This document shows positions 8,615 to 62,273 of a DNA stretch of 64,000 nt, piece after piece. The stretch covers positions 64,766 to 128,765 of the forward strand of contig CAZCNP010000001.1 in NCBI GenBank assembly GCA_964500725.1, read 5' to 3'. The position numbers were made by a program, and so were the translations under genes. The notes under the pieces are model-generated. The model was not told where the DNA came from, did no database searches, and worked only from the letters and a program-made list of their open reading frames with translations. Within the stretch, counting starts at the first letter, position 1. Each line of letters starts with the position of its first letter. Origin of the DNA: an uncultured Gammaproteobacteria bacterium (GTDB lineage Bacteria; Patescibacteriota; Microgenomatia; Daviesbacterales; UBA10151).

Positions 8615-9072
8615 TGGTTTATTCCTCCTTCTCCAATCATGGTTTTTAAAGTAACATTTTGCAGTTTACTATTATCCTTCCAGGTAATTGTGACTGAAAC
8701 CTGTTTTATATGCTCTCCATTAGTACAAATCTGCTCACTGCAATTCTCAACAACTACATTTCCAGCTCCAGAAGGCAGCAAACTTAAACGGTTATCGGCA
8801 ATAGGGGAATTATCATTTACTAGATTAATGTAGCTTATTGTTCTTTTGTCCTCAATTTGTTTGGCTGCTATTTCTCTGGCCAGAGAAAGATGCCTGCTTT
8901 TACCAATTAGCATCATTGCATTAGGAATACTTGCCATCAAAAATACAATGGACCCTACGATCACTATAACCAGAAGAGACTCTATCAAAGAAAAACCACG
9001 GGAAGAATGTAAAATGTAAAATGTAAAATGTAAAATTCTTTTTGGCTTAATTGTAAATTGTACATTGTACAT
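8611..9072 (-). CDS. minor (pseudo)pilin. The listed ATG and the first ~22 codons are encoded by two heptanucleotide repeat tracts.
   Basis: RGFSLIESLLVIVIVGSIV prepilin motif. The upstream leader MYNVQFTIKPKRILHFTFYILH is encoded by (aatgtaa)x4 and (a/c)attgta x4. Confidence 0.6.
   Translation of the reverse strand: MYNVQFTIKPKRILHFTFYILHSSRGFSLIESLLVIVIVGSIVFLMASIPNAMMLIGKSRHLSLAREIAAKQIEDKRTISYINLVNDNSPIADNRLSLLPSGAGNVVVENCSEQICTNGEHIKQVSVTITWKDNSKLQNVTLKTMIGEGGINQ
9006..9033. repeat. (aatgtaa)x4 heptanucleotide tract in the minor-pilin leader coding sequence
   Basis: Four perfect copies. Confidence 0.85.
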
Positions 9073-9076
9073 TGTA
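9049..9076. repeat. ((a/c)attgta)x4 heptanucleotide tract spanning the annotated start codon of pilin 8611..9072
   Basis: Four copies carrying TGTACA palindromes at 7-bp spacing. Confidence 0.85.
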
Positions 9077-9079
9077 AAT

Positions 9080-9907
9080 TTACTTATTTATCGTTCCTGC
9101 AGAAAAAATGGCATAGTCAAAAAAAGAGGGGACTACTTTATCAAGCCTGAATACTTGAATCTTTCTTTGGGTCTGACCAGAAGTCCCAGTCGCTGTAAAT
9201 ATCTTTGCCTGAACAGGCAGAGAACCTGAATTTGGTCTAACAGCAAATGCCTGGGATGTACTACTATAAAGCAATCTAGCACGCAGTAATATCAACTTAC
9301 TTAAACCTGGTAAAGTAGTCGAACTGACATCTATATCTTTTCCACAAAGAAATGTTTTGTCAGTATCAGGAGATAAGGAGGTTGGAATCGCTGGCGAGGA
9401 ACAAGTAACAACATCAAAACCGGCACTTCTACCACTTATTGATTCTAGGAAATATTTATGGCTCTTATACTCACCTGAGGCATCATATATTACAGTTATT
9501 TCTATTGCGGGACGATCTGAACCAGCAGTTACCTCTGCATTTCCCCAATACACAGCTAGTGTTGAATAGTCATAAACCTTAGCCAAATCACTTGGATTAG
9601 CTAACCAGACTTGGGCCATTTCTTCCTTGCCAATTGGTGGATATTCTAGTGCATTGGTTCCAGCAGGCACAGTATTCATATCAACAGCAGAAGAATTATT
9701 GTCTAAAGTAAACTCATCTACTGTGGCTCCAGTTTGAATGGCTTTTTCTATACCTGCCTCAGCTGCAGAAAAAGCTCTGGAGGATTGTTCTACCTTACTG
9801 GCAGTGGAAACATCAGAAAGAGATCTCTGGACAACTGAAATCCCTATCCCCAAAGCCACAGTCATTACCAAAATCAATATTAAAACAACCTGTCCCTTTT
9901 CTCTCAT
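9080..9907 (-). CDS. PilX-N-domain pilus assembly protein
   Basis: N-terminal TM helix followed by AFSAAEAGIEKAIQ, the PilX_N signature. Confidence 0.55.
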   Translation of the reverse strand: MREKGQVVLILILVMTVALGIGISVVQRSLSDVSTASKVEQSSRAFSAAEAGIEKAIQTGATVDEFTLDNNSSAVDMNTVPAGTNALEYPPIGKEEMAQVWLANPSDLAKVYDYSTLAVYWGNAEVTAGSDRPAIEITVIYDASGEYKSHKYFLESISGRSAGFDVVTCSSPAIPTSLSPDTDKTFLCGKDIDVSSTTLPGLSKLILLRARLLYSSTSQAFAVRPNSGSLPVQAKIFTATGTSGQTQRKIQVFRLDKVVPSFFDYAIFSAGTINK

Positions 9908-9911
9908 ATTT

Positions 9912-10586
9912 TCATCTTAGTCCAACAGTAGTCTTAAATACAACTGGATCAATCTGGCCGGCAATCACAGCAGGCGCATTAACACCTGGACCTAAAGTAA
10001 ATGATACTGTCACACTATCTTTATAACCTGATTGTGGATTTTTGGTAAATGAACCAGTTGTAACTGACACTCCTGATTGAAGATTTGTATCAGTCAAAAT
10101 CACAATCTGTGTCATTGGATCAGCAATATTACATACTCTACTAACAAACTCTGATTCCGTTTCTTTTCTTAAAGGAGAAGAACCAGCAACATCTTGCTTT
10201 GCAGGATTATCTTGTTGTATATAACCATTAATGCTATGATCCGAAGGCTCAAGAGTAATTCTATAACGTGTGTATGTACCATTCGTGACCACTACCAAAG
10301 TGTTCGAAGAAACAATAGCAGGAGGAGATGGTAACTGCGGGCACACTACATTATCAGCGCCTCTGATAGTTTTATCCATATTATCCAAAACTGCCTGGCC
10401 ATTTTGTTTTATCACAGCCAGTATTTGTGATTTATTACTGCCTCTTAAAGTATTGGTAAAAATAGTTACTAAAATAGTCCCAACTATAGCAACAATAGCC
10501 ATAGTGACTAAAATTTCAACTAAAGTAAACCCAGCACCACTCTTTCTAATCCTGTCTTTGTGGTGCTGGGTAAACCCTTTATTCAT
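9912..10586 (-). CDS. type IV pilin-like protein with a long leader
   Basis: GFTQHHKDRIRKSGAGFTLVEILVTMAIVAIVG prepilin signal. The leader-coding DNA contains the conserved hairpin repeat. Confidence 0.75.
   Translation of the reverse strand: MNKGFTQHHKDRIRKSGAGFTLVEILVTMAIVAIVGTILVTIFTNTLRGSNKSQILAVIKQNGQAVLDNMDKTIRGADNVVCPQLPSPPAIVSSNTLVVVTNGTYTRYRITLEPSDHSINGYIQQDNPAKQDVAGSSPLRKETESEFVSRVCNIADPMTQIVILTDTNLQSGVSVTTGSFTKNPQSGYKDSVTVSFTLGPGVNAPAVIAGQIDPVVFKTTVGLR
10527..10576. repeat. pilin-leader hairpin repeat, copy A (arms aaacccagcaccac / gtggtgctgggtaaaccc)
   Basis: 11-bp perfect inverted repeat within the leader-coding region of pilin 9912..10586. The 44-nt core is identical to copy D. 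Confidence 0.8.
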
Positions 10587-13040: not shown

Positions 13041-13046
13041 GTTTTA

Positions 13047-13078
13047 ATTGTACATTGTACATTGTACATTGTACATTG
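13047..13078. repeat. (attgtac)x4.5 heptanucleotide tract between a pilin stop and the pilin-LamG start
   Basis: Same unit as 9049-9076. Lies 6 nt upstream of the ATG of 11832..13040. Confidence 0.85.
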
Positions 13079-14747: not shown

Positions 14748-14782
14748 TCAATTGTCAATTGTCCAATGTTAATTGTCAATTG
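14748..14782. repeat. (tcaattg)x5 imperfect heptanucleotide tract immediately upstream of pilin 14285..14740
   Basis: CAATTG palindromes at 7-bp spacing. Confidence 0.8.
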
Positions 14783-14788
14783 TTTTAA

Positions 14789-16678
14789 TTAATTGGGAGT
14801 AAAGTTTATGGTAATAGTATAGATAGAATCATCATTTACTACATTTGAGAGGGAATCCTTATAGTAAGTTAGCACATCGCCATTACCATTCATCTGCTGG
14901 GTAACTGTTCTGGTTTTTCGAACACGATCACCTGCACCAACAGTCACTTCTTGTAAGTCAAATCCTGGAAAATCATTATATTGCTTAACGCGATCTAATC
15001 TATAAAGCCAACTATAATCCATATAAATAACACCAAATTTAAATCCATTGCCTCCTGTACCTACCTTCGTTTCGGTTACTGTCATAATTGCCAGACCTTT
15101 CCTGGGTGCCCGCCAAAAAATAACTGCTGTGTCAATCTGTCCTCCTAGAGAATGGCTTGGGGATAACATCATATAACTCGCTCCCCAAATATTACTATTA
15201 GGTGCTTTCCAATAAGGCTGTCCTGAAGGCACATCCATCCAAATTTCCGGTCCAGCTTCATAATTGGCCTGCTGTGTTGTGCCCCCATATTGCCAGACAT
15301 CTTGGCTGTAGTGGTAAAACCAGCAACGACTCCAGACAGGGTTATCTCCTGAGCATAAAGTAACATTTCCTAGGTTACCTGAATATTCGGAAGCCAAAGT
15401 ATGCGTTGATGGACAAGGCAAATTGGTACAAGTCCTTGAACTGTTACCTCCATCTAAGCTACTACAATCTGTGCCTTCGTTTGCAGGGGAGGGATTAGAA
15501 CAAGTTCTAGTTTGTGTGCCACTAGTACCACAAGCAGTTGCTGAACAAGCACTCCAATCAGACCATCCTCCATTAACAGGACATGCTTGAGTATTGCAAG
15601 CCACAGTTTCTGTTAAACCTCTTGTTACACCATCTGACAATAAACATTGAGATCCTCCATTGGCAGGAGAGGGATTTGTACAGGTTCTAGTTTGTGTGCC
15701 ACTAGTACCACAAGCTATGGCTGAACAACTACTCCAGGCAGTCCAAACACCATCAATCCTCTCCACCGGCCCTTGCTTTAATTTAATACTGACATCATAA
15801 CCTCGGCCATTACAAAGATAGCTTGAGTTATAATAATAAGGGCTTATAGCACCTGTGCTAGCGATAGTACTTGTGGAGTCTCGACTACTATAGTAAGCAA
15901 ATCCTCCTATACCCGGACATGTTCCATAACAGGAAGCCGTACAAGGTGTACACCGGTTTAAAATATTACTTAAATCAGAATTGCTTGGGCAACTCATGTA
16001 GACTGTTTTATTTGCTAGGCCGGCATCCGATGTTCTGCAATGGATGGCAGAAACAGTACTTAACATTGGCACAGTTGGACAAGCTGGACTAAGATCATAG
16101 GGAGTTGTTGTTCCACTTGAACCAATGGTAGAAACTGCTCCTGAAGGCAAAGTAGAACCATTATCATAGACTCCACCTCTAGAAATAGCAGCAATCAGAT
16201 TTTGAGCAGAAGCCCCTACAGATGTTTTACAATAACAATAATTCTGATTAGTTCCAGAAGCAAGACTATTTATACACTGCTGAGGAGTTACACCAGGAGG
16301 CGCGCTATCTAAAATACTACATGCTACAAATGACTTCCCGTCTGAACTGATAACATAATCATTGTCTTTAGGTGGAGTAGGCAAAGTGTTATTTACAAAA
16401 AATGAGGCAAGACTAGATAAACTGCTTAAAACAGGATAGCTAGCTGTTTTAATATTGTATTTTGACTCCATAACCTTGGCTATAGCATCAATATCTGCTT
16501 TTCTTTTAGTATCCCTGGCCTTTTGCCCAACTCCACTATACATTGTCAACCCAACCACACTTAACACCCCAATAATGGCTACTACTATCAAAAGCTCAAC
16601 TAAAGTAAACCCAGCACCACTTTTAGAACTCGGAAATGTGGTGCTGGGTAAACCCACACTTCTTTTTCTCATTTTCAT
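14789..16678 (-). CDS. pilin-like protein carrying two thrombospondin type-1 (TSP1) repeats and a Cys-rich C-terminal domain
   Basis: Leader SGAGFTLVELLIVVAIIGVL, plus WTAWSSCSAIACGTSGTQTRTCTNPSPANGGSQC and WSDWSACSATACGTSGTQTRTCSNPSPANEGTDC. Confidence 0.75.
   Translation of the reverse strand: MKMRKRSVGLPSTTFPSSKSGAGFTLVELLIVVAIIGVLSVVGLTMYSGVGQKARDTKRKADIDAIAKVMESKYNIKTASYPVLSSLSSLASFFVNNTLPTPPKDNDYVISSDGKSFVACSILDSAPPGVTPQQCINSLASGTNQNYCYCKTSVGASAQNLIAAISRGGVYDNGSTLPSGAVSTIGSSGTTTPYDLSPACPTVPMLSTVSAIHCRTSDAGLANKTVYMSCPSNSDLSNILNRCTPCTASCYGTCPGIGGFAYYSSRDSTSTIASTGAISPYYYNSSYLCNGRGYDVSIKLKQGPVERIDGVWTAWSSCSAIACGTSGTQTRTCTNPSPANGGSQCLLSDGVTRGLTETVACNTQACPVNGGWSDWSACSATACGTSGTQTRTCSNPSPANEGTDCSSLDGGNSSRTCTNLPCPSTHTLASEYSGNLGNVTLCSGDNPVWSRCWFYHYSQDVWQYGGTTQQANYEAGPEIWMDVPSGQPYWKAPNSNIWGASYMMLSPSHSLGGQIDTAVIFWRAPRKGLAIMTVTETKVGTGGNGFKFGVIYMDYSWLYRLDRVKQYNDFPGFDLQEVTVGAGDRVRKTRTVTQQMNGNGDVLTYYKDSLSNVVNDDSIYTITINFTPN
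15485..15750. repeat. two ~85-bp, ~90%-identical DNA segments 180 bp apart, encoding the two TSP1 repeats
   Basis: 15485-15570 versus 15665-15750. Also similar to 56105-56215 in the 1094-aa protein gene. Confidence 0.75.
16607..16655. repeat. pilin-leader hairpin repeat, copy B
   Basis: Same arms with a different loop. Here read in a different frame (GLPSTT...SGAGF) within pilin 14789..16678. Confidence 0.8.
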
Positions 16679-16920
16679 AATCCAATCCTTTTTTTTAATT
16701 CTCTTATTGAATTACCACTATATTTTAGTCTTTTTTCTCTTAATCTAGCTAAATTTTCCATATTGAAAGCTTCGTAATAATGAAGAGTCCATGGCTTATA
16801 TCGTTTAGTAGAAAATACTTCACCATTATTATGCTCCAATAAACGCCTTTCAAGATCGTTTGTAGATCCAATATAAATCTGATTATTAGACATACTAACT
16901 AAGATATAAACATAATACAT
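16675..16920 (-). CDS. GIY-YIG nuclease (homing-endonuclease-like, stand-alone domain)
   Basis: MYYVYILVS...QIYIGSTNDLERRLLEHNNG is the GIY-YIG motif block. Confidence 0.75.
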   Translation of the reverse strand: MYYVYILVSMSNNQIYIGSTNDLERRLLEHNNGEVFSTKRYKPWTLHYYEAFNMENLARLREKRLKYSGNSIRELKKRIGL

Positions 16921-16922
16921 AA

Positions 16923-16953
16923 GTGGTGCTGGGTAAAACCCTTTTTAGGCATT
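16923..16953 (-). pseudogene. orphan pilin start fragment (MPKKGFTQHH...) left upstream of the GIY-YIG gene
   Basis: The start context gggcattac and the right hairpin arm gtggtgctgggtaaaaccc are duplicated from pilin 18965..20023 (MPKNSGFTQHH). Confidence 0.5.
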
Positions 16954-16963: not shown

Positions 16964-17008
16964 TGTCATTTTAGTCAGCAAATATGCAAGTATTTGTGGT
17001 AAAATTAG
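16964..17008 (+). promoter_or_regulatory. ~45-bp upstream element (promoter/operator candidate) of AbiEii-like cassette 1
   Basis: gtcattttagtcagcaaatatgcaagtatttgtggtaaaatt is repeated almost identically at 17943-17988 and contains a TAAAAT -10-like box. Confidence 0.45.
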
Positions 17009-17011
17009 ATT

Positions 17012-17305
17012 ATGCAACAAGCATCTATGAACAAGTTCTTGGCTTCGCCGATAAAACAGGCATTTTGGGATTATAATTTTACCGAACACCAGCTTCTGAA
17101 AAAATTGGCAAAAGGCACAAGAGAAGAAAAAACATGGATTATAGGCAGAATTTTGGAAAATCTTCCTTTTAATTCTATATGGAAATATACAACACCAAAA
17201 CAAGTAAAAGAAATCTTTCCATACCTTCACCTGCGCCCCAAACTTAAACAAATCTGGAGCTATACACTCTCTTTGTGGGGAAAATATGAAAAAACCTCTC
17301 ACTAA
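17012..17305 (+). CDS. small partner protein of the AbiEii-like nucleotidyltransferase (putative antitoxin/regulator; not AbiEi-like)
   Basis: 97 aa, overlaps the downstream NTase gene. Paralogous to 17991..18203 (WDYN...ILENL / INYGNL). Confidence 0.5.
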   Translation: MQQASMNKFLASPIKQAFWDYNFTEHQLLKKLAKGTREEKTWIIGRILENLPFNSIWKYTTPKQVKEIFPYLHLRPKLKQIWSYTLSLWGKYEKTSH

Positions 17306-17939
17306 ACTTCAGGAGGAGGTTCTTAAAAACTTTTTTGCCCAGCCAATTGGAAAATCCTACTTTTTGACTGGTGGCACTGCGCTTTCCGGATTTTATTTTT
17401 ACCATCGTGATAGTATTGATCTTGACTTTTTCACCTTTGAAACTATTGAAATTGAGCCTGTAAGACAGCTGCTCGAGATGGTTGCAAAAGAAGCCGGTTT
17501 ATCTTTGGATCATCGCGTGGCAACATCCGGATATCATAAATTTTTTCTGACAGGCAAAAAGGAGGAGCTTAAAATTGATCTGGTCAGAGAACAAAAGGTC
17601 CATTTTGGGGAAATTAAGACTTTTGGCAAAATAAAAGTGGATTCTATAGAAAACATTGGCAGTAATAAAATTACCGCAATTTTTGGCAGGACAGAGGCAA
17701 AAGACTTCATTGATCTTTATTTAATCTTGCAGAAGAAACTATTTACTTTTGAAAAACTCCTAAAAGATGCTAAAAAGAAGGATTTGGGTCTTTCTGAATT
17801 TTATCTGGCCCATATGCTTCTTGAAGTAAAAAATCTAAAAAATTTTCCCAAGATGTTAATTCCTTTTGACAAATCAACCATGAAAAACTATTTTATCTTG
17901 TTGGCAAACAGACTTCTAGTAGAAGCGAAGCCAGAATAA
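17286..17939 (+). CDS. AbiEii/DUF1814-family nucleotidyltransferase (type IV TA toxin-like)
   Basis: FLTGGTALSGFYFYHRDSIDLDFF N-terminal NTase motif. Confidence 0.65.
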   Translation: MKKPLTKLQEEVLKNFFAQPIGKSYFLTGGTALSGFYFYHRDSIDLDFFTFETIEIEPVRQLLEMVAKEAGLSLDHRVATSGYHKFFLTGKKEELKIDLVREQKVHFGEIKTFGKIKVDSIENIGSNKITAIFGRTEAKDFIDLYLILQKKLFTFEKLLKDAKKKDLGLSEFYLAHMLLEVKNLKNFPKMLIPFDKSTMKNYFILLANRLLVEAKPE

Positions 17940-17942
17940 ACA

Positions 17943-17988
17943 GTCATTTTAGTCAGCAAATATGCAAGTATTTTATGGTAAAATTATA
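17943..17988 (+). promoter_or_regulatory. second copy of the cassette upstream element
   Basis: Near-identical to 16964-17008. Confidence 0.45.
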
Positions 17989-18874: not shown

Positions 18875-18888
18875 ATTAAAAATCTAAC

Positions 18889-18957
18889 CAATAATTGCTA
18901 CTACTATCAAAAGCTAGCTCAACCAGGGTAAACCCCTGGGGAGTTTTTTCATGCATT
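18889..18957 (-). pseudogene. pilin 5' fragment (MHEKTPQGFTLVELAFDSSS...), truncated
   Basis: DNA similar to the 5' end of pilin 14789..16678 (ctactactatcaaaagct...gtaaaccc); reaches a stop after about 25 codons. Confidence 0.5.
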
Positions 18958-18964: not shown

Positions 18965-20023
18965 TTATATTAAAGGAATAAGGTAATCAAGGCTTTGCCT
19001 TGAAAAAATCATATATCCAATCCCTGGAGAAATTGCAAAACCATCGCCTCCACCACCCACTGAAAATACCGAAAAACTCGCACCTTCCAGTTGAAAAATC
19101 TGAGTTGCACACCCAGTACAACCTGTGTTTATAGCGTTCAATAATGTTTTTGCTTTATTTATGCTGGCGGGAACAGCAGCAAAGGATATTCCTGTATATC
19201 CAGAAAGTAAAGAGATCTTAGTTTGTACAGCCTGTACCCCTTGAATTTGTGAATTAGATGACCCATCAGCGTTGATAAAAAAAGCCATTCCTACAGTGAC
19301 CGGAGAAGTGTTGTTTTGACAACCATCAGAACAGTCTGACAAATAATAGTCTCCATTAGCTGCAACCGTCGCAATAGATAAAATCCCATTTTCTTCTCCT
19401 CCTAAATCTGTATAAAATTTTCCGAGTGTATAAGAACTACCTTTATCTACCGTTAAACCGACAAAGTTGAAACCTGCTGTGAGGTTAATAGTTTGGAAAG
19501 CTGGAGCAGGATATGTGGGCGGACCACCACCACCGGAGGAAGTTTTGCAAAAACAATTAACAGAATCTTGCGCATTAACACATGAATTATTACCAATGTT
19601 ACTCCCCAAAGGAGCGCAAACAGAAAAATTATCTCCAGAAACAGTATCTCCAGAACCATTTGTATTATTATAGTTAGCATTTATATCTGGTCCTACTACA
19701 ATATAGGAAGTATTAGTTGTTCCATCGGGGGTAGGAATTTTTCCAGAGGCAAACATAGCTTCTGTTAATGGTTTATATCCACCCTGGCCACCATTTGCAG
19801 TAGGATCATAATTTGTTTCATAGGCTTTTTTAATAGCATCAATATCTGCTCTTCTTTTGGCATCCAGGGTTGAATTCCTGACTGCTTGAAAAGACACAAA
19901 ACCTACTACAGATAAAATACTGATTATGGAAATAACTACTAAAAGTTCAATGAGGGTAAAACCAGCACCACTCTTTCTAATCCTGTCTTTGTGGTGCTGG
20001 GTAAAACCAGAGTTTTTGGGCAT
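18965..20023 (-). CDS. type IV pilin-like protein with a long leader and a Gly/Asn-rich C-terminal domain
   Basis: MPKNSGFTQHHKDRIRKSGAGFTLIELLVVISIISILSVVGF. The 5' ~110 bp after the TM helix is near-identical to 20070..21152. Confidence 0.75.
   Translation of the reverse strand: MPKNSGFTQHHKDRIRKSGAGFTLIELLVVISIISILSVVGFVSFQAVRNSTLDAKRRADIDAIKKAYETNYDPTANGGQGGYKPLTEAMFASGKIPTPDGTTNTSYIVVGPDINANYNNTNGSGDTVSGDNFSVCAPLGSNIGNNSCVNAQDSVNCFCKTSSGGGGPPTYPAPAFQTINLTAGFNFVGLTVDKGSSYTLGKFYTDLGGEENGILSIATVAANGDYYLSDCSDGCQNNTSPVTVGMAFFINADGSSNSQIQGVQAVQTKISLLSGYTGISFAAVPASINKAKTLLNAINTGCTGCATQIFQLEGASFSVFSVGGGGDGFAISPGIGYMIFSRQSLDYLIPLI
19957..20007. repeat. pilin-leader hairpin repeat, copy D
   Basis: ccagcaccactctttctaatcctgtctttgtggtgctgggtaaaacc within pilin 18965..20023. 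Confidence 0.8.
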
Positions 20024-21749: not shown

Positions 21750-22217
21750 TTATTGCTGTGCAGCTCTACAATAAAAATTAAGTGTTCCTGTAGTAACTAT
21801 TGAAGTTTCACTTGAAGAATTGCCATTACCTTTTTCTAGTCTTGCACAAGCGATAAATTTGGGATCCGAAGCATTAACAGTGACAACATATTGATAACTA
21901 TTTCCACCATAAGCTATTGCGTTACCAGATTTTGCTGTGTCCACAGGATCAAATGGTTGTTGATTATTAGCAAAGATACTAGGACCATAAGTTGGATAAG
22001 TTTCGCTTCCTGGTGCTCCAGTACGGTTTGACTCCATGGCTGTAGCTATAGCATCAATGTCTGCACGCCTTCTGCCATCCCTCGCTTGTTTTTGAGCATT
22101 CGAAAAAGCAGCAACGCCTATCACAGACAAAAAGGCAATAATGGTAACAACTACCATCAGTTCAATAAGGGTGAAACCTGAAGTATTATTTTTAAGTTTG
22201 GGCAGAAACTTCTTCAT
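21750..22217 (-). CDS. type IV pilin
   Basis: TSGFTLIELMVVVTIIAFLSVIGV...RRRADIDAIATAME. Confidence 0.8.
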   Translation of the reverse strand: MKKFLPKLKNNTSGFTLIELMVVVTIIAFLSVIGVAAFSNAQKQARDGRRRADIDAIATAMESNRTGAPGSETYPTYGPSIFANNQQPFDPVDTAKSGNAIAYGGNSYQYVVTVNASDPKFIACARLEKGNGNSSSETSIVTTGTLNFYCRAAQQ

Positions 22218-22335
22218 ATTATTATTTGCTTAATTTTCTATATACTAATCTATTATTGATACAAATCTTTCGGGCTGTCAATACGTCAGTTCAAAGCTAA
22301 ATAGATAGATGTAAATACCACTCCATTAATTTATC

Positions 22336-22412
22336 TCCCCAATAGAGCATAATTAAACTACCTAATACCAAAAATGGCCCAAAGGGGATGGTTTGACCAA
22401 AGTGTGAAGATA
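22336..22412 (-). pseudogene. duplicated 3' fragment of pilD (~85% identical to 23356-23432)
   Basis: Reverse translation gives ...SHFGQTIPFGPFLVLGSLIMLYW, matching the PilD C-terminus KHFGQTIPFGPFLVLGSLIMLYW. Confidence 0.6.
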
Positions 22413-22427
22413 TCAGTTGAGCTTCAA

Positions 22428-23072
22428 TCAAAGGTATTTTTTGACTTCATCTTCAAAAAAATGCTTTATCTCTTCCGGCTGGGGCAGGGAAACTTTTGCA
22501 ACCGGTGTAACAGAAAAACTGGATATATCACCAAAGTAAACCAGTTGTTCCAGGAAAAGTTTCTCACTAAAAGCACCCCCATAAACCTTTTCAGATACTG
22601 AAATAATTTGTTTTATATCAATATGACCCTGTTTTAAAATCGTGTACAAGTCAAAGTAATCCCTGTATTCTCCTCTTCTGCCAATTGTGTATGCTTTTTG
22701 TATAGCAATTTCCGGTATGGAAAATAGGGAAAGCCCTTTTCCTGTTTTCAAAATTTGGAAGTGCGGTTTGAAAGGATAGTAAAGAAAAGTAATTTTTATA
22801 CCATTTTTTGTAAATAAGGTTAGCTCGTCTAATGTGTCAATAACAACATTATCTATTGCCAATACCTGGGAAAGTTTTTCCAGTAATTTTTTGGGAATCT
22901 GGGAGGTACTAAAAAAATCAAAATCAAACGATTTACGGTGGGCAAGCTGAAGAGCAAGCGCAGTTCCTCCAGCTAACACAAACTCTTCAGTAAAGGGAAT
23001 GATTTTTTGTAATAAATCTCTCCTCTTATCATCCAAGATGCCGGGGTGTACTTTTGAGATATTTTTGTTCAT
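22428..23072 (-). CDS. AbiEii/DUF1814-family nucleotidyltransferase (third copy)
   Basis: FVLAGGTALALQLAHRKSFDFDFF. Confidence 0.6.
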   Translation of the reverse strand: MNKNISKVHPGILDDKRRDLLQKIIPFTEEFVLAGGTALALQLAHRKSFDFDFFSTSQIPKKLLEKLSQVLAIDNVVIDTLDELTLFTKNGIKITFLYYPFKPHFQILKTGKGLSLFSIPEIAIQKAYTIGRRGEYRDYFDLYTILKQGHIDIKQIISVSEKVYGGAFSEKLFLEQLVYFGDISSFSVTPVAKVSLPQPEEIKHFFEDEVKKYL

Positions 23073-23316
23073 CTAATTTAGTACTAATACCAAGAACTAT
23101 GTTCTTGATAAAGTTAAAAGCTGAGGCTGTATAAATTTTTTTGGGAAAACCCAGAAAACATTTTTTTACTTCTTTTTCTCCAACAACATTAAGAAGAGAT
23201 TTTATCTCTTCCAGCGAACCAAACATTAGCGTCTGATGGATATTGTCTAAAGAACCCTGTTCTACTTCATCTAAATACCATACACGTTTTGTACCCATGA
23301 ACAAATTATACCTCAA
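23029..23316 (-). CDS. small partner protein of the third AbiEii-like NTase
   Basis: 95 aa, upstream of and overlapping the NTase gene; unrelated in sequence to the other two partners. Confidence 0.4.
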   Translation of the reverse strand: MRYNLFMGTKRVWYLDEVEQGSLDNIHQTLMFGSLEEIKSLLNVVGEKEVKKCFLGFPKKIYTASAFNFIKNIVLGISTKLDEQKYLKSTPRHLG

Positions 23317-24243
23317 TTACTGCCCTAAATGAAGATACCAGTCAATAATTTGACTGCCCCAATATAGCATTATCAAACTTCCTAACACTAAAAATGGGCC
23401 AAAGGGGATTGTTTGGCCAAAATGCTTTTTACCCAGGAGTATCAGACCTACTGAAAATACAGCTCCTGTTAAAAATGATAAAATTAAAGCAACCAGGGCA
23501 TTAGGGAAGCCTAACATCAACCCTATAAAAGCCCCTAACTTAACATCCCCTCCACCCATACCTTTACCGCGGGTTATAATAATCAAGCTTAAGAAAAAAC
23601 CTCCAATTGCTAGCCCCATTAAAATAGATAACAAAAATGGCTGGGCAGTAATCAAAGCATGCCTTTGGAAATAATCACTATGTGGAGGAAGTAAGTATCT
23701 CCCCACTGGAGTCTGAGAAAGGTAAAAGTAAAGGTATCCAATCTTATATATGGTAAATAAAAATAGGGAAACTGCCCCCACAACAATAGCTGGCAAAATA
23801 ACCCTGTCTGGAATAAACATCTTTTTTAAATCTGTTAAAAAAAGAGCTGTTAAAACTGCTATAAAGAATATATTTAACAAAACTTCTATAACTTTAATTT
23901 GAAATTTGAAATTTGAAATTTGAAATTGAAGAGGGGAGAGACCTTGAAAGCTTTGAAAGAAAAGAAATCCTACCAATAATCCTACTGCCACCTCGACTAA
24001 TAAATACTCCATGCCAATTTTTTTCTTGCAATACCTGCATTTTCCAGCAAGCAGGATATAGGAGAAAATAGGAAAAAGGTCGTACCATCTAAGTTCTGTT
24101 TTGCAGAATAGACAATACGACCTTCCCTTAAAATACTTACCAATTAAACTTCGGTCAGCCAATACCTTCGTAAAACTCCCTAAAATAATGCCTATTAAAA
24201 ACCCGACTGACCCCCAAATGACCATTATGGCGCGTACGTACAA
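23317..24243 (-). CDS. pilD: prepilin peptidase (A24 family)
   Basis: N-terminal CxxC...CxxC zinc-finger region and catalytic GGGDVKLGAFIGLMLG motif. Confidence 0.85.
   Translation of the reverse strand: MYVRAIMVIWGSVGFLIGIILGSFTKVLADRSLIGKYFKGRSYCLFCKTELRWYDLFPIFSYILLAGKCRYCKKKIGMEYLLVEVAVGLLVGFLFFQSFQGLSPLQFQISNFKFQIKVIEVLLNIFFIAVLTALFLTDLKKMFIPDRVILPAIVVGAVSLFLFTIYKIGYLYFYLSQTPVGRYLLPPHSDYFQRHALITAQPFLLSILMGLAIGGFFLSLIIITRGKGMGGGDVKLGAFIGLMLGFPNALVALILSFLTGAVFSVGLILLGKKHFGQTIPFGPFLVLGSLIMLYWGSQIIDWYLHLGQ
23899..23926. repeat. (tttgaaa)x4 heptanucleotide tract inside the pilD coding sequence
   Basis: Four perfect copies; encodes FQISNFKFQI. Confidence 0.85.
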
Positions 24244-28895: not shown

Positions 28896-29516
28896 GTGAT
28901 TGCAAGGCTTTATATTTGTAGAAATATTGACAAGAGAGCAGAGGAGATTAAAAAGATATTAGCTTCCCACATCGGAAGTGGGAACGTAAATCATCCTGAT
29001 GTTTTATACTTTGAAAAAGATACTAAGTTAGGGATTGCTGAAAGCAGAAAAATAATAGATCACTTTTCTCTAAAACCTTACTCTGCCAAAGGCAGGGTAG
29101 CAGTTTTAGAACAAGCAGAAGATTTAACCCTTGATGCTCAAAATGCCCTGTTAAAAACACTAGAAGAGTTACCTACTGAGGCAGTTTTTATTCTGGGGGC
29201 TGCCTCTGAAGATAACCTTTTACCAACAATTTTATCCAGATGCCAGATTATTAAAGTTCACAGTTCACAGTTCACAGTTCACAGTTATAACAAAGACATT
29301 GAGAAATTGCTGCAGACTACAATTGAGGAAAGATTTGAATATATAGAGAAATTAAAAGATAGGGAGCAGTTCCTATATTCTTTAACAAGCTTTTTCCATC
29401 AAAAATTACCAAACAGCGCTTCATTTTTAGAAAAACTTTTGCAAGCAGAGGGATGGGCCAAACAAAATGTTAATATCAGGGCAATTTTAGAATATTTGAT
29501 GCTTGAAATGCCATAA
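28896..29516 (+). CDS. holB: DNA polymerase III delta' subunit-like protein (short form)
   Basis: Sensor motif TILSRCQII; about 200 aa, AAA+-lid-like. Confidence 0.55.
   Translation: MIARLYICRNIDKRAEEIKKILASHIGSGNVNHPDVLYFEKDTKLGIAESRKIIDHFSLKPYSAKGRVAVLEQAEDLTLDAQNALLKTLEELPTEAVFILGAASEDNLLPTILSRCQIIKVHSSQFTVHSYNKDIEKLLQTTIEERFEYIEKLKDREQFLYSLTSFFHQKLPNSASFLEKLLQAEGWAKQNVNIRAILEYLMLEMP
28964..28984. repeat. 21-bp palindromic element ttcccacatcggaagtgggaa, in-frame inside holB
   Basis: Perfect 7-bp arms TTCCCAC/GTGGGAA with a 7-nt spacer; encodes SHIGSG. Confidence 0.85.
29256..29283. repeat. (gttcaca)x4 heptanucleotide tract inside the holB coding sequence
   Basis: Four perfect copies; encodes VHSSQFTVHS. 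Confidence 0.85.
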
Positions 29517-33216: not shown

Positions 33217-34518
33217 ATGATCAAGGTACATTTCTTAGGAATAGGTGGTTCTGGAGCATCTGGGGCTGCAGCTATTGCCCAAGCACAAGGGTATAAAGTA
33301 ACAGGCTGTGACCTTTACCCAGAAAATGAATTTACTACAGTATTTAATTCCAACCAAATGTTTGCTGGCCACAGTCCAGAGCATTTAGCTTCCCACATCG
33401 GAAGTGGGAATGTAGATATTTTAGCTGTTACTCCAGCAATCTTTTCTTTAGACCCCAATAACCCAGAACTATTAGAAGCTAAGAAAAAAGGTATTCCTGT
33501 TTTAACCTGGCAACAATTTTTGGGGAAATATTTGGCAAAGGACAAACTTGTGATTGCTATAGCAGGTACCCATGGTAAATCTACCACCACTGCTATGATA
33601 GCCCAATTGCTAGAAGATGCTGGTTTAGATCCAACAGCTCTACTAGGAGCAATTATTCCCAGGTGGGAAACCAATTACAGGATTGGGAAAGGCAAATTTT
33701 TTGTAGTTGAGGCAGATGAATTTAATGATAATTTCTTAAGTTTAAAACCCAATATTGCTGTTGTTACCAATATTGAAATGGATCACCCAGAATACTTTAA
33801 AGATTTTGAAGCAGTAAAGATGAGTTTTTATAAATTTTTACTACAAACCAACCAAACAGCTGTTGTTAACTTAACTGATCCAGGCATTGCTGAGGTGGCT
33901 AAAAACACCATGAAACATTCTGGTATTACTTATTTAGATTATTCCAAAAATGAATTAGGTATAGACCTTAAAGTTCCTGGAGGGTTCAATAACCTAAATG
34001 CTAAAGCTGCTATGCAGGTTGGACTAGTTTTAGGAATTGAAACCAATGTTATCAAACAGAGTTTAGGAAACTTTACTGGAGCCAGTAGAAGATTTGAATA
34101 TATTGGAGAGTACAATGGAGCTAAAGTATATTCTGACTTTGGGCATCATCCTAGAGAAATAGAAGTTACAGCAAAAGCTGCTAGACAAAAATTTCCTGAC
34201 AGTAGAATTTTATTAATCTTCCAACCTCATATGTTTTCCAGAACCAAAGCTTTATTTGATAATTTTGTAAATGTTTTAAAAAATGTCCCAACTGATAAAA
34301 CTTTTATCATGGATATTTACCCCTCAAGAGAGATAGATACAGGGTTAGTTACAAGCAAACAGTTAGTTGAAGCAATTAACAAACCCTCAGTTGTATATAT
34401 TGGATCTGCCTCAGAAACTTTAGAAAAGCTTAAACCAAAAATCCAAAAAGGGGATATTGTCTTTTTTATGAGCGCTGGAGATACAGATATGTTAGCTAAA
34501 AAATTAGTCAGGTCCTAA
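33217..34518 (+). CDS. murC: UDP-N-acetylmuramate--L-alanine ligase
   Basis: HFLGIGGSGASGAAAIA; GTHGKSTTTAMIAQLL. Confidence 0.9.
   Translation: MIKVHFLGIGGSGASGAAAIAQAQGYKVTGCDLYPENEFTTVFNSNQMFAGHSPEHLASHIGSGNVDILAVTPAIFSLDPNNPELLEAKKKGIPVLTWQQFLGKYLAKDKLVIAIAGTHGKSTTTAMIAQLLEDAGLDPTALLGAIIPRWETNYRIGKGKFFVVEADEFNDNFLSLKPNIAVVTNIEMDHPEYFKDFEAVKMSFYKFLLQTNQTAVVNLTDPGIAEVAKNTMKHSGITYLDYSKNELGIDLKVPGGFNNLNAKAAMQVGLVLGIETNVIKQSLGNFTGASRRFEYIGEYNGAKVYSDFGHHPREIEVTAKAARQKFPDSRILLIFQPHMFSRTKALFDNFVNVLKNVPTDKTFIMDIYPSREIDTGLVTSKQLVEAINKPSVVYIGSASETLEKLKPKIQKGDIVFFMSAGDTDMLAKKLVRS
33390..33410. repeat. 21-bp palindromic element, in-frame inside murC
   Basis: Identical 21-mer. About 30 nt are near-identical to the holB copy (tagcttcccacatcggaagtgggaaYgtaRat). 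Confidence 0.85.
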
Positions 34519-35346: not shown

Positions 35347-36705
35347 ATGCAATCGTTTAAGGATAAAAAAATATTGGTGTTTGGATTGGGCTTAAATCAA
35401 GGTGGAGTAGGGTCTGCTTTGTTTTTTGTAAAACTTGGAGCAGAAGTAAAAGTTACAGATTTAAAAACCAAAGAAGTTTTACAACCCTCTTTAGATCAAC
35501 TCAAAGATTTCCCAAATATTTCCTATACCCTAGGAGAACATAAAAATGAAGATATCGATTGGGCAGATTTAATAATCAAAAATCCTGCAGTTAAGCCAGG
35601 TAATCAATATATTGAATATGCTTTGAAAAATGGCAAACAAGTTGAAACAGATATGGGAATATTCTTACAATCTGTTTTACCATCTCAAATTATTGGGGTT
35701 ACAGGAACTAAGGGAAAATCTACTACTTCTTCTTTAATTTATGAAGTATTAAAAGCTGCTGGTAGAAAAGTAGTCTTTGCTGGCAATATTGGTAAAAGTG
35801 TTTTAGAAACTATCCCCTTTGTTGATAAAGATACCTTAGTAGTTTTGGAAATTTCTTCTTTCCAGTTAGAGGCTTTTGATGCTCATAAAGTTTCTCCTAA
35901 ATGGGCAGTAATAACCAACATTACTCCAGATCATCTAAATTATTACAAATCAATGGATGAATATATAAAAGCAAAAAAGGTAATAGGGAAGTACCAAACA
36001 GAAAAAGATTATATGTTATTGAAGAAAGATGATCCAGTCACCACTAATCCAAGTTTCTTAGAAGGATTAAAAGGACAAATCATTTATTGCTCAACAGAAG
36101 ATTTACCCCAAAATTTTCATCCCCACCTTTTAGGTCAACATAATTTAGGTAATATTGCTGCTGTCTATAACTTAGGAAAGCTGTTTGATATCAACCCAGA
36201 TCTCTTACTCAAAACTCTTACTAATTTTAAAGGGATACCCTTTAGAATGGAGCTTATTAAAGATTGGGATGGAGTAAAAATTTATAATGATACTACAGCT
36301 ACCTCACCTGAGTCAGGAATTCAAGCCATAAAAGCTTTACGTTCCCACATCGGAAGTGGGAAGCTAAATATTATCCTTGTTTGCGGAGGAATGAACAAAG
36401 GAATGGACTACACAGAATATGCCAAAGAGATTAGCAAATCAGTTAAAAAAGTTTTCTTCCTAGAGGGAGACTCTACTGACTCCATTCTCCGGTCATTGCA
36501 AGCGGAGCAAAACAATCTAGAAACTTTTGGGCCATACAACAACTTAGAACAACTCTTGGAAGATGTTAAAAAAGTAGCAAAACCAGGAGATACAATTTTA
36601 TTTTCTCCAGCAGCAACATCATTTAACTTATTCCAAAATGAATTTGACAGGGGAAGAAAATTTAATAAAGCAGTTGAAAAAGTTTTTGGGACAAGTACTT
36701 CTTAG
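35347..36705 (+). CDS. murD: UDP-N-acetylmuramoylalanine--D-glutamate ligase
   Basis: GVTGTKGKSTTSSLI and a Mur ligase C-terminal domain. Confidence 0.85.
   Translation: MQSFKDKKILVFGLGLNQGGVGSALFFVKLGAEVKVTDLKTKEVLQPSLDQLKDFPNISYTLGEHKNEDIDWADLIIKNPAVKPGNQYIEYALKNGKQVETDMGIFLQSVLPSQIIGVTGTKGKSTTSSLIYEVLKAAGRKVVFAGNIGKSVLETIPFVDKDTLVVLEISSFQLEAFDAHKVSPKWAVITNITPDHLNYYKSMDEYIKAKKVIGKYQTEKDYMLLKKDDPVTTNPSFLEGLKGQIIYCSTEDLPQNFHPHLLGQHNLGNIAAVYNLGKLFDINPDLLLKTLTNFKGIPFRMELIKDWDGVKIYNDTTATSPESGIQAIKALRSHIGSGKLNIILVCGGMNKGMDYTEYAKEISKSVKKVFFLEGDSTDSILRSLQAEQNNLETFGPYNNLEQLLEDVKKVAKPGDTILFSPAATSFNLFQNEFDRGRKFNKAVEKVFGTSTS
36342..36362. repeat. 21-bp palindromic element, in-frame inside murD
   Basis: Identical 21-mer, same reading frame (RSHIGSGKLN). 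Confidence 0.85.
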
Positions 36706-61384: not shown

Positions 61385-62273
61385 ATTTTCATATCTTAAT
61401 CCTTATACACCAATCTGTAAAATTTTATCATCATAGGTTAGCATGAATATCTTACTTGTAATGCTGATTACAAGAATAATACCAAGGCTAAATAGGTATT
61501 GTCAAGCATGAAATTAACAATAAGCTATATAATATTTAAGGGGTTGAAGTAATGTTAGATCATTACCAGTGGGTGGATCCTTACGGGGTGAAACTATTAA
61601 CACTATGAAGGCATTCTTACCCCTTTCTTTCCTATCTGAGCCTGCTCAGGCGCGAGGCCCTGGAAGGCCTCAAAAACGGCTTATTGGGGAGTAGGAGCTA
61701 TATACCTTCATCCAAAGTTTAGATTGTTATAGAGGGCCAAACTAAACATTAGTATAAAATAAAAAACTCCGGAATATAACTTAAAAAATTTGGACGGGAA
61801 TAACACAAAAATATGTACCAATAAAAGTTTATAATTCCTACCTTTTGTTCGCTTTATATTTCAACCAATCAGTCAAAGCAGGTCTCCTCCGTCAAAATGT
61901 ATATATCTCATATTGTACGACATCAAATGTAGGGAATTCACAACAATTCTCTAAAAGAGAAGAGAAGATCTAAGCAAGAGCTCGATATAAACAAACTCAT
62001 TACACTCATAAATAAAACAACACCATTACTGCTAACAGAGCAGACCTCTCCTCTAAGCAAGCTTCGGGTATTGTAAGAAGGAAACTAGCAGTTATCCACA
62101 AACGGTGACAATACAGGCACAAGTAGACCCCATAGTTTTTCTTCTTTGTGCCTATCAACTATATCATTCTATATCATTTATTCTTTTCACGAAAATACCC
62201 TATAATTTTTCACGACTCTACTCTGACTTTAGAGTTTTAATACTTCCCCACTTCCCCATCTTTATTGTATTTT

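What the first reader, a model, noticed from the sequence alone, without database searches (positions are those of the whole stretch)
22330..23432. Third AbiEii-like pair flanked by a duplicated pilD 3' end
22336-22412 reverse-translates to ...SHFGQTIPFGPFLVLGSLIMLYW, the C-terminus of PilD. It is ~85% identical at DNA level to 23356-23432, the real pilD end. The NTase and small-ORF pair (22428-23316) lies exactly between the two copies. Two independent insertions in this window show flanking target duplication. That argues these NTase pairs travel as a mobile module, not as static toxin-antitoxin loci. The ~15% divergence suggests an old event or ongoing gene conversion.
Basis: seen in the sequence. 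Interest (0 to 1): 0.75.

Follow-up and report, generated by a model that had tools for sequence, protein, structure and literature searches.

The report
Toxin cassette flanked by duplicated pilD end
A 0.9-kb toxin-antitoxin-like gene pair in a groundwater Daviesbacteria genome sits between two diverged copies of the last ~108 bases of the prepilin peptidase gene. Half of its relatives elsewhere are likewise bracketed by repeats of their local target, so these pairs move by recombination without a recombinase of their own.

Summary
pilD (23317-24243, minus strand) ends in a 108-nt segment, P1 (23424-23317). It recurs as an orphan, P2, at 22404-22297, in frame down to its own stop codon (79% identity over 99 nt). 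An 89-aa ORF plus an AbiEii nucleotidyltransferase lies between the copies.

Most related Daviesbacteria have pilD followed directly by a pilin gene. Ten lineages carry one to three orphan pilD ends with varied cargo: AbiEii pairs, HepT/MNT pairs and an IS200-like element.

The copies are not a drifted transposon-type duplication. In the first 23 codons all 11 differences are synonymous (P=4.5e-8), so both copies evolved as working pilD ends before being joined.

The cassette is horizontally mobile. It is 92% identical to a relative whose flanking genes are 54-76% identical, and the shared tract runs from about -165 in pilD through P1, the cassette and the 5' part of P2.

Across the cassette family, 18 of 37 members have target-derived flanking repeats of 21-130 nt, against 3 of 159 controls. 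There is no recombinase, no inverted termini and no conserved ends.

The parts
23317..24243 (-). pilD, the prepilin peptidase gene. NCBI aa from the ATG at 24225. It is intact and full length relative to homologues.
   Evidence: PF06750 at E=1.7e-23 and PF01478 at E=3.6e-12. There are 2796 homologues, and the C-terminus matches the Daviesbacteria consensus.
23317..23424 (-). P1, the functional pilD 3' end and upstream copy of the repeat (HFGQTIPFGPFLVLGSLIMLYWGSQIIDWYLHLGQ*). It belongs to the recently exchanged tract that starts about 165 nt before the stop.
   Evidence: establish the repeat. Against L007, third-codon-position identity jumps from 25-55% to 75-80% at about -165 to -180.
23299..23316 (-). 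18-nt spacer TTGAGGTATAATTTGTTC. It holds the cassette's own -10 box (GGTATAAT) 6 nt before the ATG, which suggests a leaderless transcript.
   Evidence: A (T)GnTATAAT-like box a few nt before the small-ORF start codon recurs in most of the 18 repeat-flanked cassettes at unrelated targets. Function is inferred.
23029..23298 (-). 89-aa ORF, the conserved partner of the NTase and presumed antitoxin. It is predicted to have four helices and has no known family.
22428..23072 (-). AbiEii-family nucleotidyltransferase, 214 aa, the presumed toxin. It overlaps the 89-aa ORF by 44 nt.
   Evidence: PF08843 at E=8.7e-13. It matches 11 PADLOC AbiEii models. There are 1025 homologues at E<=1e-30, mostly in Microgenomates.
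22405..22427 (-). 23-nt spacer between the NTase stop and the orphan copy. This is the right junction of the insertion.
   Evidence: Spacer length and sequence are not conserved across the family.
22297..22404 (-). P2, the orphan pilD 3' end and downstream copy (HFGQTIPFGPFLVLGSLIMLYWGDKLMEWYLHLSI*). It is not joined to any pilD body. Its 5' 59 nt travel with the cassette, while its tail and the downstream DNA are host-type.
   Evidence: establish the copy. It shares 57/59 nt with the orphan in L007. It is 80-85% identical to functional pilD ends of other species, no closer to its own P1 than to those.
22252..22281 (-). Native pilin promoter (TTGACA, 18 nt, AATAAT; 11 of 12 matches). It starts 15 nt after the P2 stop, as at empty sites.
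   Evidence: In the empty-site relative L178 the -35 box overlaps the pilD stop codon.
21750..22217 (-). First pilin gene downstream (155 aa), the gene that directly follows pilD at empty sites.
   Evidence: PF07963 at E=5.5e-8. In most related loci pilD is followed by a pilin gene within 35-100 nt.
16965..17986 (+). Second example in the window. AbiEii pair 1 (17012-17939) is bracketed by a 44-nt direct repeat (16965-17007 and 17943-17986, 95% identical) made of host pilin-promoter sequence.
   Evidence: (D17).

Best explanation
The locus is a toxin-antitoxin-like cassette (89-aa protein plus AbiEii nucleotidyltransferase, with its own promoter). It entered the junction between pilD and the first pilin gene by recombination of horizontally acquired DNA, not by an enzyme of its own.

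Step 1 (inferred). Incoming DNA from a diverged Daviesbacteria donor carried a pilD 3' part followed by the cassette. It paired with the resident pilD as a one-sided homology anchor. Its far end was joined inside the resident pilD 3' end, about 107 nt before the stop. The donor end now completes pilD as P1. The resident end was pushed downstream as an orphan, P2, still attached to the native pilin promoter. This is an 'insertion with long target duplication', equivalently a displacement. It is tolerated because there is no free intergenic space here: the pilin -35 box abuts the pilD stop.

Step 2 (supported by tract structure). Once P1-cassette-P2 exists, the whole block spreads among relatives by ordinary homologous recombination. 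The pilD body is the left arm. The orphan P2 is a portable right arm that pairs with the recipient's own conserved pilD end, even though the downstream pilin genes share no homology. Repetition at the same site builds arrays of cargo separated by orphan pilD ends.

The same logic applies family-wide at other gene boundaries, including a tRNA 3' half and gene 3' or 5' ends. Toxin-antitoxin addiction is presumed to favour retention.
For: Joined alleles, not duplicate-and-drift. For P1 versus P2, the first 23 codons show 11 synonymous and 0 non-synonymous differences (pS 0.74, P=4.5e-8). Over all 35 codons P=4e-5. The same signature appears in other repeat pairs:
- L120: 16 synonymous, 2 non-synonymous, P=2e-9.
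- L172: P=5.5e-5.
- L018: P=6e-5.
- L176: P=6e-4.
- L127: P=0.006.
P2 is as similar to other species' functional pilD ends (80-85%) as to its own P1 (79%).

Empty site. In most of 80 species-level loci the pilD stop is followed by a pilin gene within 35-100 nt. P2 plus its promoter reproduces that junction.

Horizontal transfer of the block. Between L001 (the window) and L007, identities are:
- pilC 75.7%.
- pilD body 70.7%.
- cassette 91.9%.
- last 25 nt of P1 plus spacer 97.7%.
- P2 5' part 57/59.
- downstream intergenic 60%.
- first pilin 54%.
Third-position identity switches at about -165 in pilD.

Serial arrays at the same site:
- L007: pilD, AbiEii pair, IS, orphan, HepT/MNT, orphan.
- L018: pilD, IS, orphan, HepT/MNT, orphan.
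- L172: three copies.
- The most downstream orphan keeps the same ...WYLHLSI* tail next to the native intergenic region in the window and L172; L007's last orphan, shortened by an internal deletion, keeps a similar remnant.

Family-level evidence. 18 of 37 testable cassettes have flanking direct repeats against 3 of 159 size-matched controls (Fisher's test on the uncorrected 20 of 39 gave P=7e-14). The repeats differ between loci and are pieces of the local target: the tRNA-Pro 3' half, gene 3' ends including the stop codon, and gene 5' ends or promoters.

No dedicated machinery. There are no inverted termini and no conserved end sequences. The small protein has no recombinase-like sequence or fold.

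Precedent. Long, variable target duplications spanning start or stop codons are described for restriction-modification units, mostly in naturally competent bacteria (PMC2853133). One-sided-anchor displacement that leaves orphaned 3' regions is described for T6SS and Rhs loci (PMC5361080).
Against: - Natural transformation and RecA-dependent recombination in Daviesbacteria are assumed from the presence of a type IV pilus locus and from general knowledge.
- The origin of the first duplication at each new target (step 1) is not resolved. Some repeats are 95-100% identical (L113/L116 at 43/43; window pair 1 at 42/44). Those would also fit a true in-situ duplication.
- Orphan 5' limits cluster loosely, at -107 to -93 and at -61 to -56, and lie near a hairpin in pilD. 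That could hint at a preferred break or a recognition site.
- Other cassette comparisons (L172, L176) show cassette identity only slightly above pilD-body identity. Long co-residence with occasional exchange is therefore also involved.
- The cross-lineage tract analysis rests on one lineage pair for the AbiEii cassette and one for HepT/MNT.
Confidence: 0.6

Rival explanations
1. Site-specific integration by a recombinase encoded elsewhere in the genome. The pilD 3' end would be an attB-like site. Cassettes would be integrase-less, cis-mobilisable units carrying an attP that mimics the pilD end, as islands do at tRNA genes. Tandem accretion would give the arrays.
For: - Different cargos recur at the same site, with arrays of partial pilD ends.
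- One family member duplicates the 3' half of tRNA-Pro, the classical integrase signature.
- Orphan 5' limits cluster near a hairpin.
- In L007 the orphan is a hybrid whose switch point lies at ...GAGTG|RTAT, about -25.
Against: - No integrase lies in the cassette or in the 20 kb around it (Pfam gene table).
- Across the family the targets are unrelated sequences, with repeat lengths of 21-130 nt and no shared core. A single site-specific enzyme does not fit that.
- The copies are homologous over about 100 nt upstream of any putative crossover, which an attP does not need.
- The tract shared between lineages is contiguous from -165 in the pilD body, outside the repeat.
Confidence: 0.15
2. A transposon-like insertion made a long staggered-cut target duplication in situ, and the two copies then drifted apart or were partly homogenised by gene conversion.
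For: Direct repeats bracket the cassette exactly. Some family members have 95-100% identical repeats.
Against: - A non-functional copy drifting to 79% identity should carry mostly non-synonymous changes, about 79% expected. Observed: 0 of 11 in the conserved part (P=4.5e-8). Even if only 5 changes fell on the orphan lineage, P=5e-4.
- There is no transposase, no inverted termini, no fixed repeat length and no conserved ends.
- Conversion from P1 would make the copies alike, not synonymously saturated.
Confidence: 0.04
3. The fragment is the remnant of a second pilD paralog or of a tandem pilD duplication, and the cassette merely landed between the two genes.
For: The orphan retains an open frame, a stop codon and a fully pilD-like peptide.
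Against: - Within the about 10 kb fetched on either side of pilD in the 80 species-level loci, no second full-length pilD appears; only short 3'-end fragments are found, always immediately downstream of pilD.
- Fragments start at different points, from -107 to -35, and there can be three per locus.
- The same repeat phenomenon occurs around this cassette family at unrelated targets.
Confidence: 0.04
4. The cassette is an autonomous mobile element of a new type. The nucleotidyltransferase and/or the 89-aa protein would catalyse insertion with long target duplication.
For: Flanking repeats are strongly enriched around this particular two-gene unit. The partner protein has no known family or fold match. 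The cassette carries its own promoter.
Against: - HepT/MNT pairs and an IS200-like element show the same pilD-end duplications, so the cargo is not the common factor.
- The NTase is a clear AbiEii/DUF1814 member, a family known from the author's own knowledge as tRNA-modifying toxins.
- Synonymous-only divergence of the repeats points to recombination between alleles.
Confidence: 0.05
5. Metagenome assembly artefact: two strain variants of the pilD end were stitched into one contig.
For: The source is a metagenome-assembled genome.
Against: The architecture is identical in the NCBI MAG and in three independently assembled Logan contigs. Analogous architectures appear in four assemblies of another species and in many other genomes. 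No shared k-mer path would lead from the NTase end back into the pilD end.
Confidence: 0.02

Closest known systems
Insertion with long target duplication of restriction-modification gene units (Nobusato et al. 2000, cited in PMC2853133; Furuta et al. 2010, PMC2853133)
   Same: - A small selfish gene unit with no mobility gene.
- Flanking direct repeats longer than 30 bp and of variable length.
- The repeats equal a single-copy sequence at the empty site of relatives.
- The repeats often span a stop or start codon, so the target gene stays intact.
- The phenomenon is seen mostly in naturally competent bacteria, and its mechanism is unknown.
   Different: - The cargo is a toxin-antitoxin-like pair, not a restriction-modification unit.
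- The host is a CPR/Patescibacteria lineage.
- The repeat copies here are strongly diverged (79%), with synonymous-only differences that show two alleles of different origin. The published cases are about 90-100% identical.
- Serial arrays form at one site.
- About half of a whole cassette family shows the feature.
Orphan 3'-end and immunity arrays of T6SS effector, Rhs and CDI loci, formed by sequential displacement via homology-facilitated illegitimate recombination (Kirchberger et al. 2017, PMC5361080)
   Same: - A conserved upstream gene part acts as a one-sided anchor.
- The incoming DNA supplies a new 3' end plus linked small genes.
- The old 3' end is pushed downstream and kept as an orphan.
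- Repetition gives strings of orphaned 3' regions.
- Alleles within an array come from different strains rather than from duplication.
   Different: There, the replaced 3' end encodes a variable toxin domain, and its replacement is the adaptive point. Here, the replaced end is a conserved housekeeping C-terminus and the cargo is an unrelated toxin-antitoxin pair. The pilD product is essentially unchanged.
Integrase-mediated islands at tRNA or gene 3' ends, and their integrase-less derivatives (cis-mobilisable elements). From the author's own knowledge.
   Same: Insertion occurs at the 3' end of a conserved gene. The gene is restored by element-borne sequence. Partial gene copies serve as attL/attR-like direct repeats. 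Tandem accretion occurs. One family member sits at the tRNA-Pro 3' half.
   Different: There is no integrase in or near the cassette. The family shares no common core sequence. Repeats are 21-130 nt and drawn from unrelated targets.
AbiE type IV toxin-antitoxin / abortive infection system (AbiEi antitoxin plus AbiEii NTase; Pfam PF08843 description)
   Same: The NTase is a clear AbiEii-family member in an overlapping two-gene operon, with the small upstream gene first.
   Different: The partner is an 89-aa four-helix protein with no similarity to AbiEi winged-helix antitoxins or to any family tested.

Membership tests
AbiE (AbiEi/AbiEii) toxin-antitoxin | Toxin with an AbiEii/DUF1814 nucleotidyltransferase domain | tested here: met
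   PF08843 at E=8.7e-13, 49.2 bits against a cut-off of 22.5. It also matches 11 PADLOC AbiEii models.
AbiE (AbiEi/AbiEii) toxin-antitoxin | Cognate AbiEi antitoxin (winged-helix N-terminal domain plus C-terminal domain, about 200-300 aa) | tested here: not met
AbiE (AbiEi/AbiEii) toxin-antitoxin | Bicistronic operon, small gene first, translationally coupled | tested here: met
   The ORFs overlap by 44 nt on the same strand. The pairing is conserved in 59 of 80 related loci.
AbiE (AbiEi/AbiEii) toxin-antitoxin | Toxicity of the NTase and its neutralisation by the partner | not testable with these tools
   Needs expression assays.
Insertion with long target duplication (criteria of Furuta et al. 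2010, PMC2853133) | Inserted unit shorter than 20 kb with no transposase, integrase or other mobile-element gene | tested here: met
   The insert is 0.9 kb with two ORFs, neither recombinase-like. There are no inverted termini.
Insertion with long target duplication (criteria of Furuta et al. 2010, PMC2853133) | Flanking direct repeats longer than 30 bp | tested here: met
   99 nt gapless, 108 nt in frame. Across the family the range is 21-130 nt.
Insertion with long target duplication (criteria of Furuta et al. 2010, PMC2853133) | The repeat corresponds to a single-copy sequence at an empty site in related genomes | tested here: met
   pilD is followed directly by a pilin gene in most of 80 related loci and in L178.
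Insertion with long target duplication (criteria of Furuta et al. 2010, PMC2853133) | The two repeat copies are near-identical to each other and to the target, as in published cases | tested here: not met
   Identity is 79%, with synonymous-only divergence in the conserved part. The copies are different alleles.
Integrase-type integrative element or cis-mobilisable element | Tyrosine or serine recombinase in the element or adjacent, with a short identical core shared by attL and attR | tested here: not met
   The Pfam table of the 20-kb surroundings shows no recombinase. No core is shared by family members at different targets.
Insertion sequence / transposon | Transposase, terminal inverted repeats, and a short target duplication of fixed length | tested here: not met
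   The repeat is long and variable in length.
Integron gene cassette | attC recombination site at the cassette end, with an integron integrase and attI nearby | tested here: inconclusive
   No integrase is nearby. The cassette carries its own promoter. No attC-like structured inverted repeat appears at the 3' junction in the inverted-repeat scan. No dedicated attC model was run.

The most novel reading that the evidence does not exclude
The conserved 3' end of pilD in Daviesbacteria is a dedicated cassette-capture platform, integron-like but without a linked integrase. A host-encoded, structure- or sequence-specific activity would act at the hairpin-bearing FGQTIPFGPF-coding segment. It would repeatedly insert diverse small selfish cassettes (toxin-antitoxin pairs, IS200-like units), each with a replacement gene end. 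More broadly, these 1-kb AbiEii pairs would be a new class of integrase-less mobile cassettes in CPR bacteria, using borrowed target segments as their 'ends'.
Probability: 0.15. Interest if true: 0.8.

Novelty: new variant of a known kind. Interest (0 to 1): 0.55.

Why it matters
How chromosomal toxin-antitoxin modules move between genomes without any mobility gene is poorly explained. Here a whole family of about 1-kb cassettes in ultra-small CPR bacteria shows a consistent footprint. Long, target-derived flanking repeats are present, and their two copies are different functional alleles.

That footprint turns a vague notion ('TA loci are mobile') into a testable one. The mechanism would be recombination-driven insertion or displacement at gene boundaries, with the orphaned gene end acting as a portable homology arm next to hypervariable DNA.

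It extends 'insertion with long target duplication', known for restriction-modification units, to another class of addiction module and to a phylum with tightly packed genomes. It also identifies the pilD-pilin junction as a recurrent capture site.

For annotation, short in-frame 'pseudo-ends' of conserved genes can be used as markers of such insertions.

Tried and rejected
- **Terminal inverted repeats at the cassette borders.** None found.
- **Conserved element ends across the family.** Left and right spacers vary in length and sequence. Only a promoter-like TATAAT box is shared.
- **Does the pilD fragment travel with more distant NTase relatives?** No pilD fragment was found in 80 metagenome loci with NTases of 30-68% identity. 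The pilD association is confined to the close cassette lineage (NTases at least 77% identical).
- **Circular-intermediate (Campbell) signature.** At first the tract shared with L007 seemed to be only the last 22 nt of P1 plus the first 85 nt of P2, a circular permutation. Third-codon-position analysis showed the tract actually begins at about -165 in the pilD body and is contiguous. This argument was dropped.
- **Which copy is resident?** Comparison with the closest empty or near relative (L005, pilD 85% aa) gave 82% for P1 and 79% for P2. That is not decisive.
- **Repeats around the 35%-identity NTases (L156-L162).** These turned out to be tandem paralogous cassettes, not target duplications, and were excluded. 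Two apparent hits (L134, L153) were coordinate artefacts of truncated matches and were excluded from the 18-of-37 count.
- **Literature.** No paper was found describing long target duplication for toxin-antitoxin cassettes or in CPR bacteria.
Full report
**Source and layout**

The window comes from contig JACQIW010000013.1 of a Candidatus Daviesbacteria metagenome-assembled genome, GCA_016198315.1. The region is a type IV pilus locus. On the minus strand it reads pilB, pilT, pilC, a pilin, pilD (23317-24243), then a run of pilin genes.

**Checking the observation**

- The direct repeat is real: 22306-22404 versus 23326-23424, 99 nt, 79% identical, spacing 1020 (D10; alignment). blastn gives E-values of about 1e-20 to 1e-23.
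- In frame, both copies run from the H of HFGQTIPFGPF... to a stop codon at the same relative position. P1 is 23424-23317; P2 is 22404-22297.
- Between them lie an 18-nt spacer, an 89-aa ORF (23029-23298), an overlapping 214-aa AbiEii nucleotidyltransferase (22428-23072; PF08843, E=8.7e-13) and a 23-nt spacer.
- P2 is followed 15 nt later by a strong promoter-like site for the next pilin gene.
- The same structure is present in three independently assembled contigs.

**What relatives look like**

I fetched 80 species-level genome loci that encode pilD relatives.

- In most Daviesbacteria the pilD stop is followed by a pilin gene within 35-100 nt. This is the empty site. In L178 the pilin -35 box even overlaps the pilD stop.
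- About 15 loci carry insertions at this junction. The cargos are AbiEii pairs, HepT/MNT pairs, HicB-like and four-helix-bundle genes, and an IS200-like Y1 transposase element.
- Extra pilD 3'-end fragments occur in the window, L007-L010, L018, L016, L028, L061, L172, L176, L175 and L177.
- Several loci form arrays:
  - L007: pilD, the same AbiEii cassette, IS, orphan, HepT/MNT, orphan, pilin.
  - L018: pilD, IS, orphan, HepT/MNT, orphan, pilin.
  - L172: three pilD-end copies.
- In the window and L172 the most downstream copy ends ...WYLHLSI* and abuts the native intergenic region. L007's last orphan, shortened by an internal deletion, keeps a similar remnant. This fits it being the old resident end.

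**The two copies are different alleles, not a drifted duplicate**

- In the 23 conserved codons, all 11 differences between P1 and P2 are synonymous. pS is 0.74 and pN is 0. Under neutrality P=4.5e-8, and P=5e-4 even if only five of the changes fell on the orphan lineage.
- The tail differs at residues that also vary among functional pilD orthologues.
- P2 is no closer to its own P1 (79%) than to the functional pilD ends of other species (80-85%).
- Other repeat pairs show the same signature: L120 has 16 synonymous and 2 non-synonymous differences (P=2e-9), and L172, L018, L176 and L127 follow the same pattern.
- The orphan therefore spent almost all of the divergence time as part of a working gene. 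The present arrangement joined two already diverged alleles.

**The cassette is horizontally mobile**

- Between the window (L001) and L007, identities are: pilC 75.7%, pilD body 70.7%, first pilin 54% (effectively non-homologous) and downstream intergenic 60%. The cassette, in contrast, is 91.9% identical, and the last 25 nt of P1 plus the spacer are 97.7% identical.
- Third-codon-position identity in pilD is 25-55% upstream of about -180 and 75-80% from there to the stop. Mismatches thin out sharply after -167.
- On the other side, the 5' 59 nt of P2 match the L007 orphan at 57 of 59 positions. The tails then diverge.
- The recently shared tract is therefore contiguous: pilD from about -165, then P1, then the cassette, then the 5' part of P2.
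- The HepT/MNT cassette shows the same pattern between L007 and L018. It is 90-97% identical, including the adjoining parts of both pilD-end copies, and then drops to unrelated pilins.
- Other AbiEii cassettes at this site (L172, L176) are only slightly more similar than the pilD bodies. Long residence with occasional exchange is therefore part of the picture.

**A family-wide property**

- A metagenome scan with the NTase returned 80 loci at 30-68% identity. None is next to pilD.
- Of 37 cassettes with enough flank, 18 have a direct repeat within 300 nt on both sides. Only 3 of 159 size-matched pseudo-cassettes in the same contigs do (two artefactual hits removed from the real set, and Fisher's test on the uncorrected 20 of 39 gave P=7e-14).
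- The repeats are 21-130 nt long, 69-100% identical and different at every locus. They are recognisable pieces of the local target:
  - the 3' half of tRNA-Pro (L109, L152);
  - the last 17 codons plus stop of an upstream ORF (L127);
  - the last 25 codons of a convergent downstream gene (L120);
  - the first codons of a ruvC-like gene (L128);
  - promoter plus start codon of downstream genes (L113, L116, L130, L096).
- Spacers between repeat and cassette vary, and no terminal motif is shared. The exception is a TATAAT box, often preceded by TG, a few nt before the small-ORF start. This suggests an own promoter and a leaderless transcript.
- In this window, AbiEii pair 1 (17012-17939) is likewise bracketed by a 44-nt, 95% identical repeat made of host pilin-promoter sequence.

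**No machinery in the cassette**

- The 89-aa protein is conserved, with 20 invariant residues in 45 homologues.
- It matches nothing in Pfam, NCBIfam, PADLOC or PDB sequences.
- There are no terminal inverted repeats.
- No recombinase appears in the 20-kb gene table.

**Mechanism proposed**

- Step 1 is inferred. DNA from a diverged donor carried a pilD 3' part plus the cassette. It used pilD as a one-sided anchor, and its far end was joined within the resident pilD end. The resident end was displaced downstream.
- Such insertions survive in these compact genomes because they keep both the upstream gene and the downstream promoter intact. Furuta et al. made the same argument for repeats spanning start or stop codons.
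- Step 2 is supported by the tract structure. The block then spreads by ordinary homologous recombination. The pilD body is the left arm. The orphan is a portable right arm that pairs with the recipient's conserved pilD end, bypassing the non-homologous pilins. Each transfer renews the orphan tail from a functional recipient end, which explains why orphans look coding-intact.
- That the pair acts as a toxin-antitoxin module, and that addiction helps retention, rests on family knowledge and was not tested here.

**Comparison with known systems**

- The closest described phenomenon is 'insertion with long target duplication' of restriction-modification units (PMC2853133). All of its criteria are met except that the repeats here are diverged alleles.
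- The closest mechanistic analogue is the sequential displacement that leaves orphaned 3' regions at T6SS, Rhs and CDI loci, proposed to occur by homology-facilitated illegitimate recombination (PMC5361080).
- The locus resembles tRNA-gene islands in outcome but lacks an integrase and a common core.
- I found no report of this footprint for toxin-antitoxin cassettes or in CPR bacteria.

**Verdict**

It is wrong about the nature and age of the repeats. I rate the finding as a new variant of a known kind and moderately interesting. The main open point is how the first duplication at a new target arises, and whether a host activity at the pilD end is involved.

Noticed in passing
window 16965-17007 and 17943-17986: AbiEii pair 1 (17012-17939, + strand) is bracketed by a 44-nt direct repeat (95% identical, 31 nt perfect). 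The repeat is host pilin-promoter sequence, with homologues upstream of pilins in L018, L030 and L015. The downstream copy now precedes AbiEii pair 2.
   Followed up: partly
window 16638-16657, 16675-16920, 16924-16943: An 81-aa GIY-YIG nuclease ORF (PF01541, E=4e-16) is wedged directly upstream of the 629-aa pilin gene, with its stop overlapping the pilin ATG. It is flanked by copies of GTGGTGCTGGGTAAA(A)CCC, one of them inside the pilin N-terminal coding region. This may be another small insertion with target duplication.
   Followed up: partly
window 18887-18945: A frameshifted fragment of a pilin N-terminal coding region lies just after AbiEii pair 2. It is about 88% identical to 16567-16612, with a 4-nt insertion. 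The whole GIY-YIG, pair 1 and pair 2 block may therefore sit between copies of a pilin 5' end.
   Followed up: partly
L007 3874-4617; also L015, L016, L018, L172, L177, L179 just after the pilD stop: An IS200-like element occupies the same pilD-pilin junction in at least seven related species. It has a Y1_Tnp gene of 192-238 aa and direct subterminal hairpins ACACCCTTGGGGTGT at both ends. It occurs both with and without an adjoining orphan pilD end.
   Followed up: partly
L018 11805-11897: A 93-nt insertion splits one orphan pilD end in two. It contains a hairpin (ACTCCGCAGTTTACTGCGGAGT) and may be a miniature element.
   Followed up: no
window 23397-23418 (minus strand): The FGQTIPFGPF-coding part of pilD forms a terminator-like hairpin (GGCCAAAC-AATCCCC-TTTGGCC followed by CATTTTT). 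The 5' limits of several orphan copies (-107 to -93) fall in or next to it.
   Followed up: no
window 28958-29003, 33384-33429, 36336-36381: Three copies of a 46-nt repeat (80% identical) contain the palindrome TTCCCACATCGGAAGTGGGAA. Their function is unknown.
   Followed up: no
window 23894-23927; also 9003-9080, 13044-13077, 14748-14781, 62272-62305: Short runs of 7-nt periodic repeats occur. One, TTTGAAA x4, lies inside pilD and encodes FQISNFKFQIK in a variable loop. Others, of the type TTGTAAA/TTGTACA, lie near pilin genes.
   Followed up: no
L175 271-318: A close relative of the cassette is preceded by only the last about 45 nt of a pilD end, with no pilD gene upstream; an unrelated minus-strand ORF is there instead. 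It is followed directly by the usual pilin promoter. The gene-end fragment can therefore stay with the cassette after rearrangement.
   Followed up: partly
window 10507-10577, 16587-16657, 19938-20008: The 5' regions of several pilin genes share an inverted repeat, ACCCAGCACCAC ... GTGGTGCTGGGT, spanning the start of the coding region. It may be a conserved mRNA hairpin.
   Followed up: no
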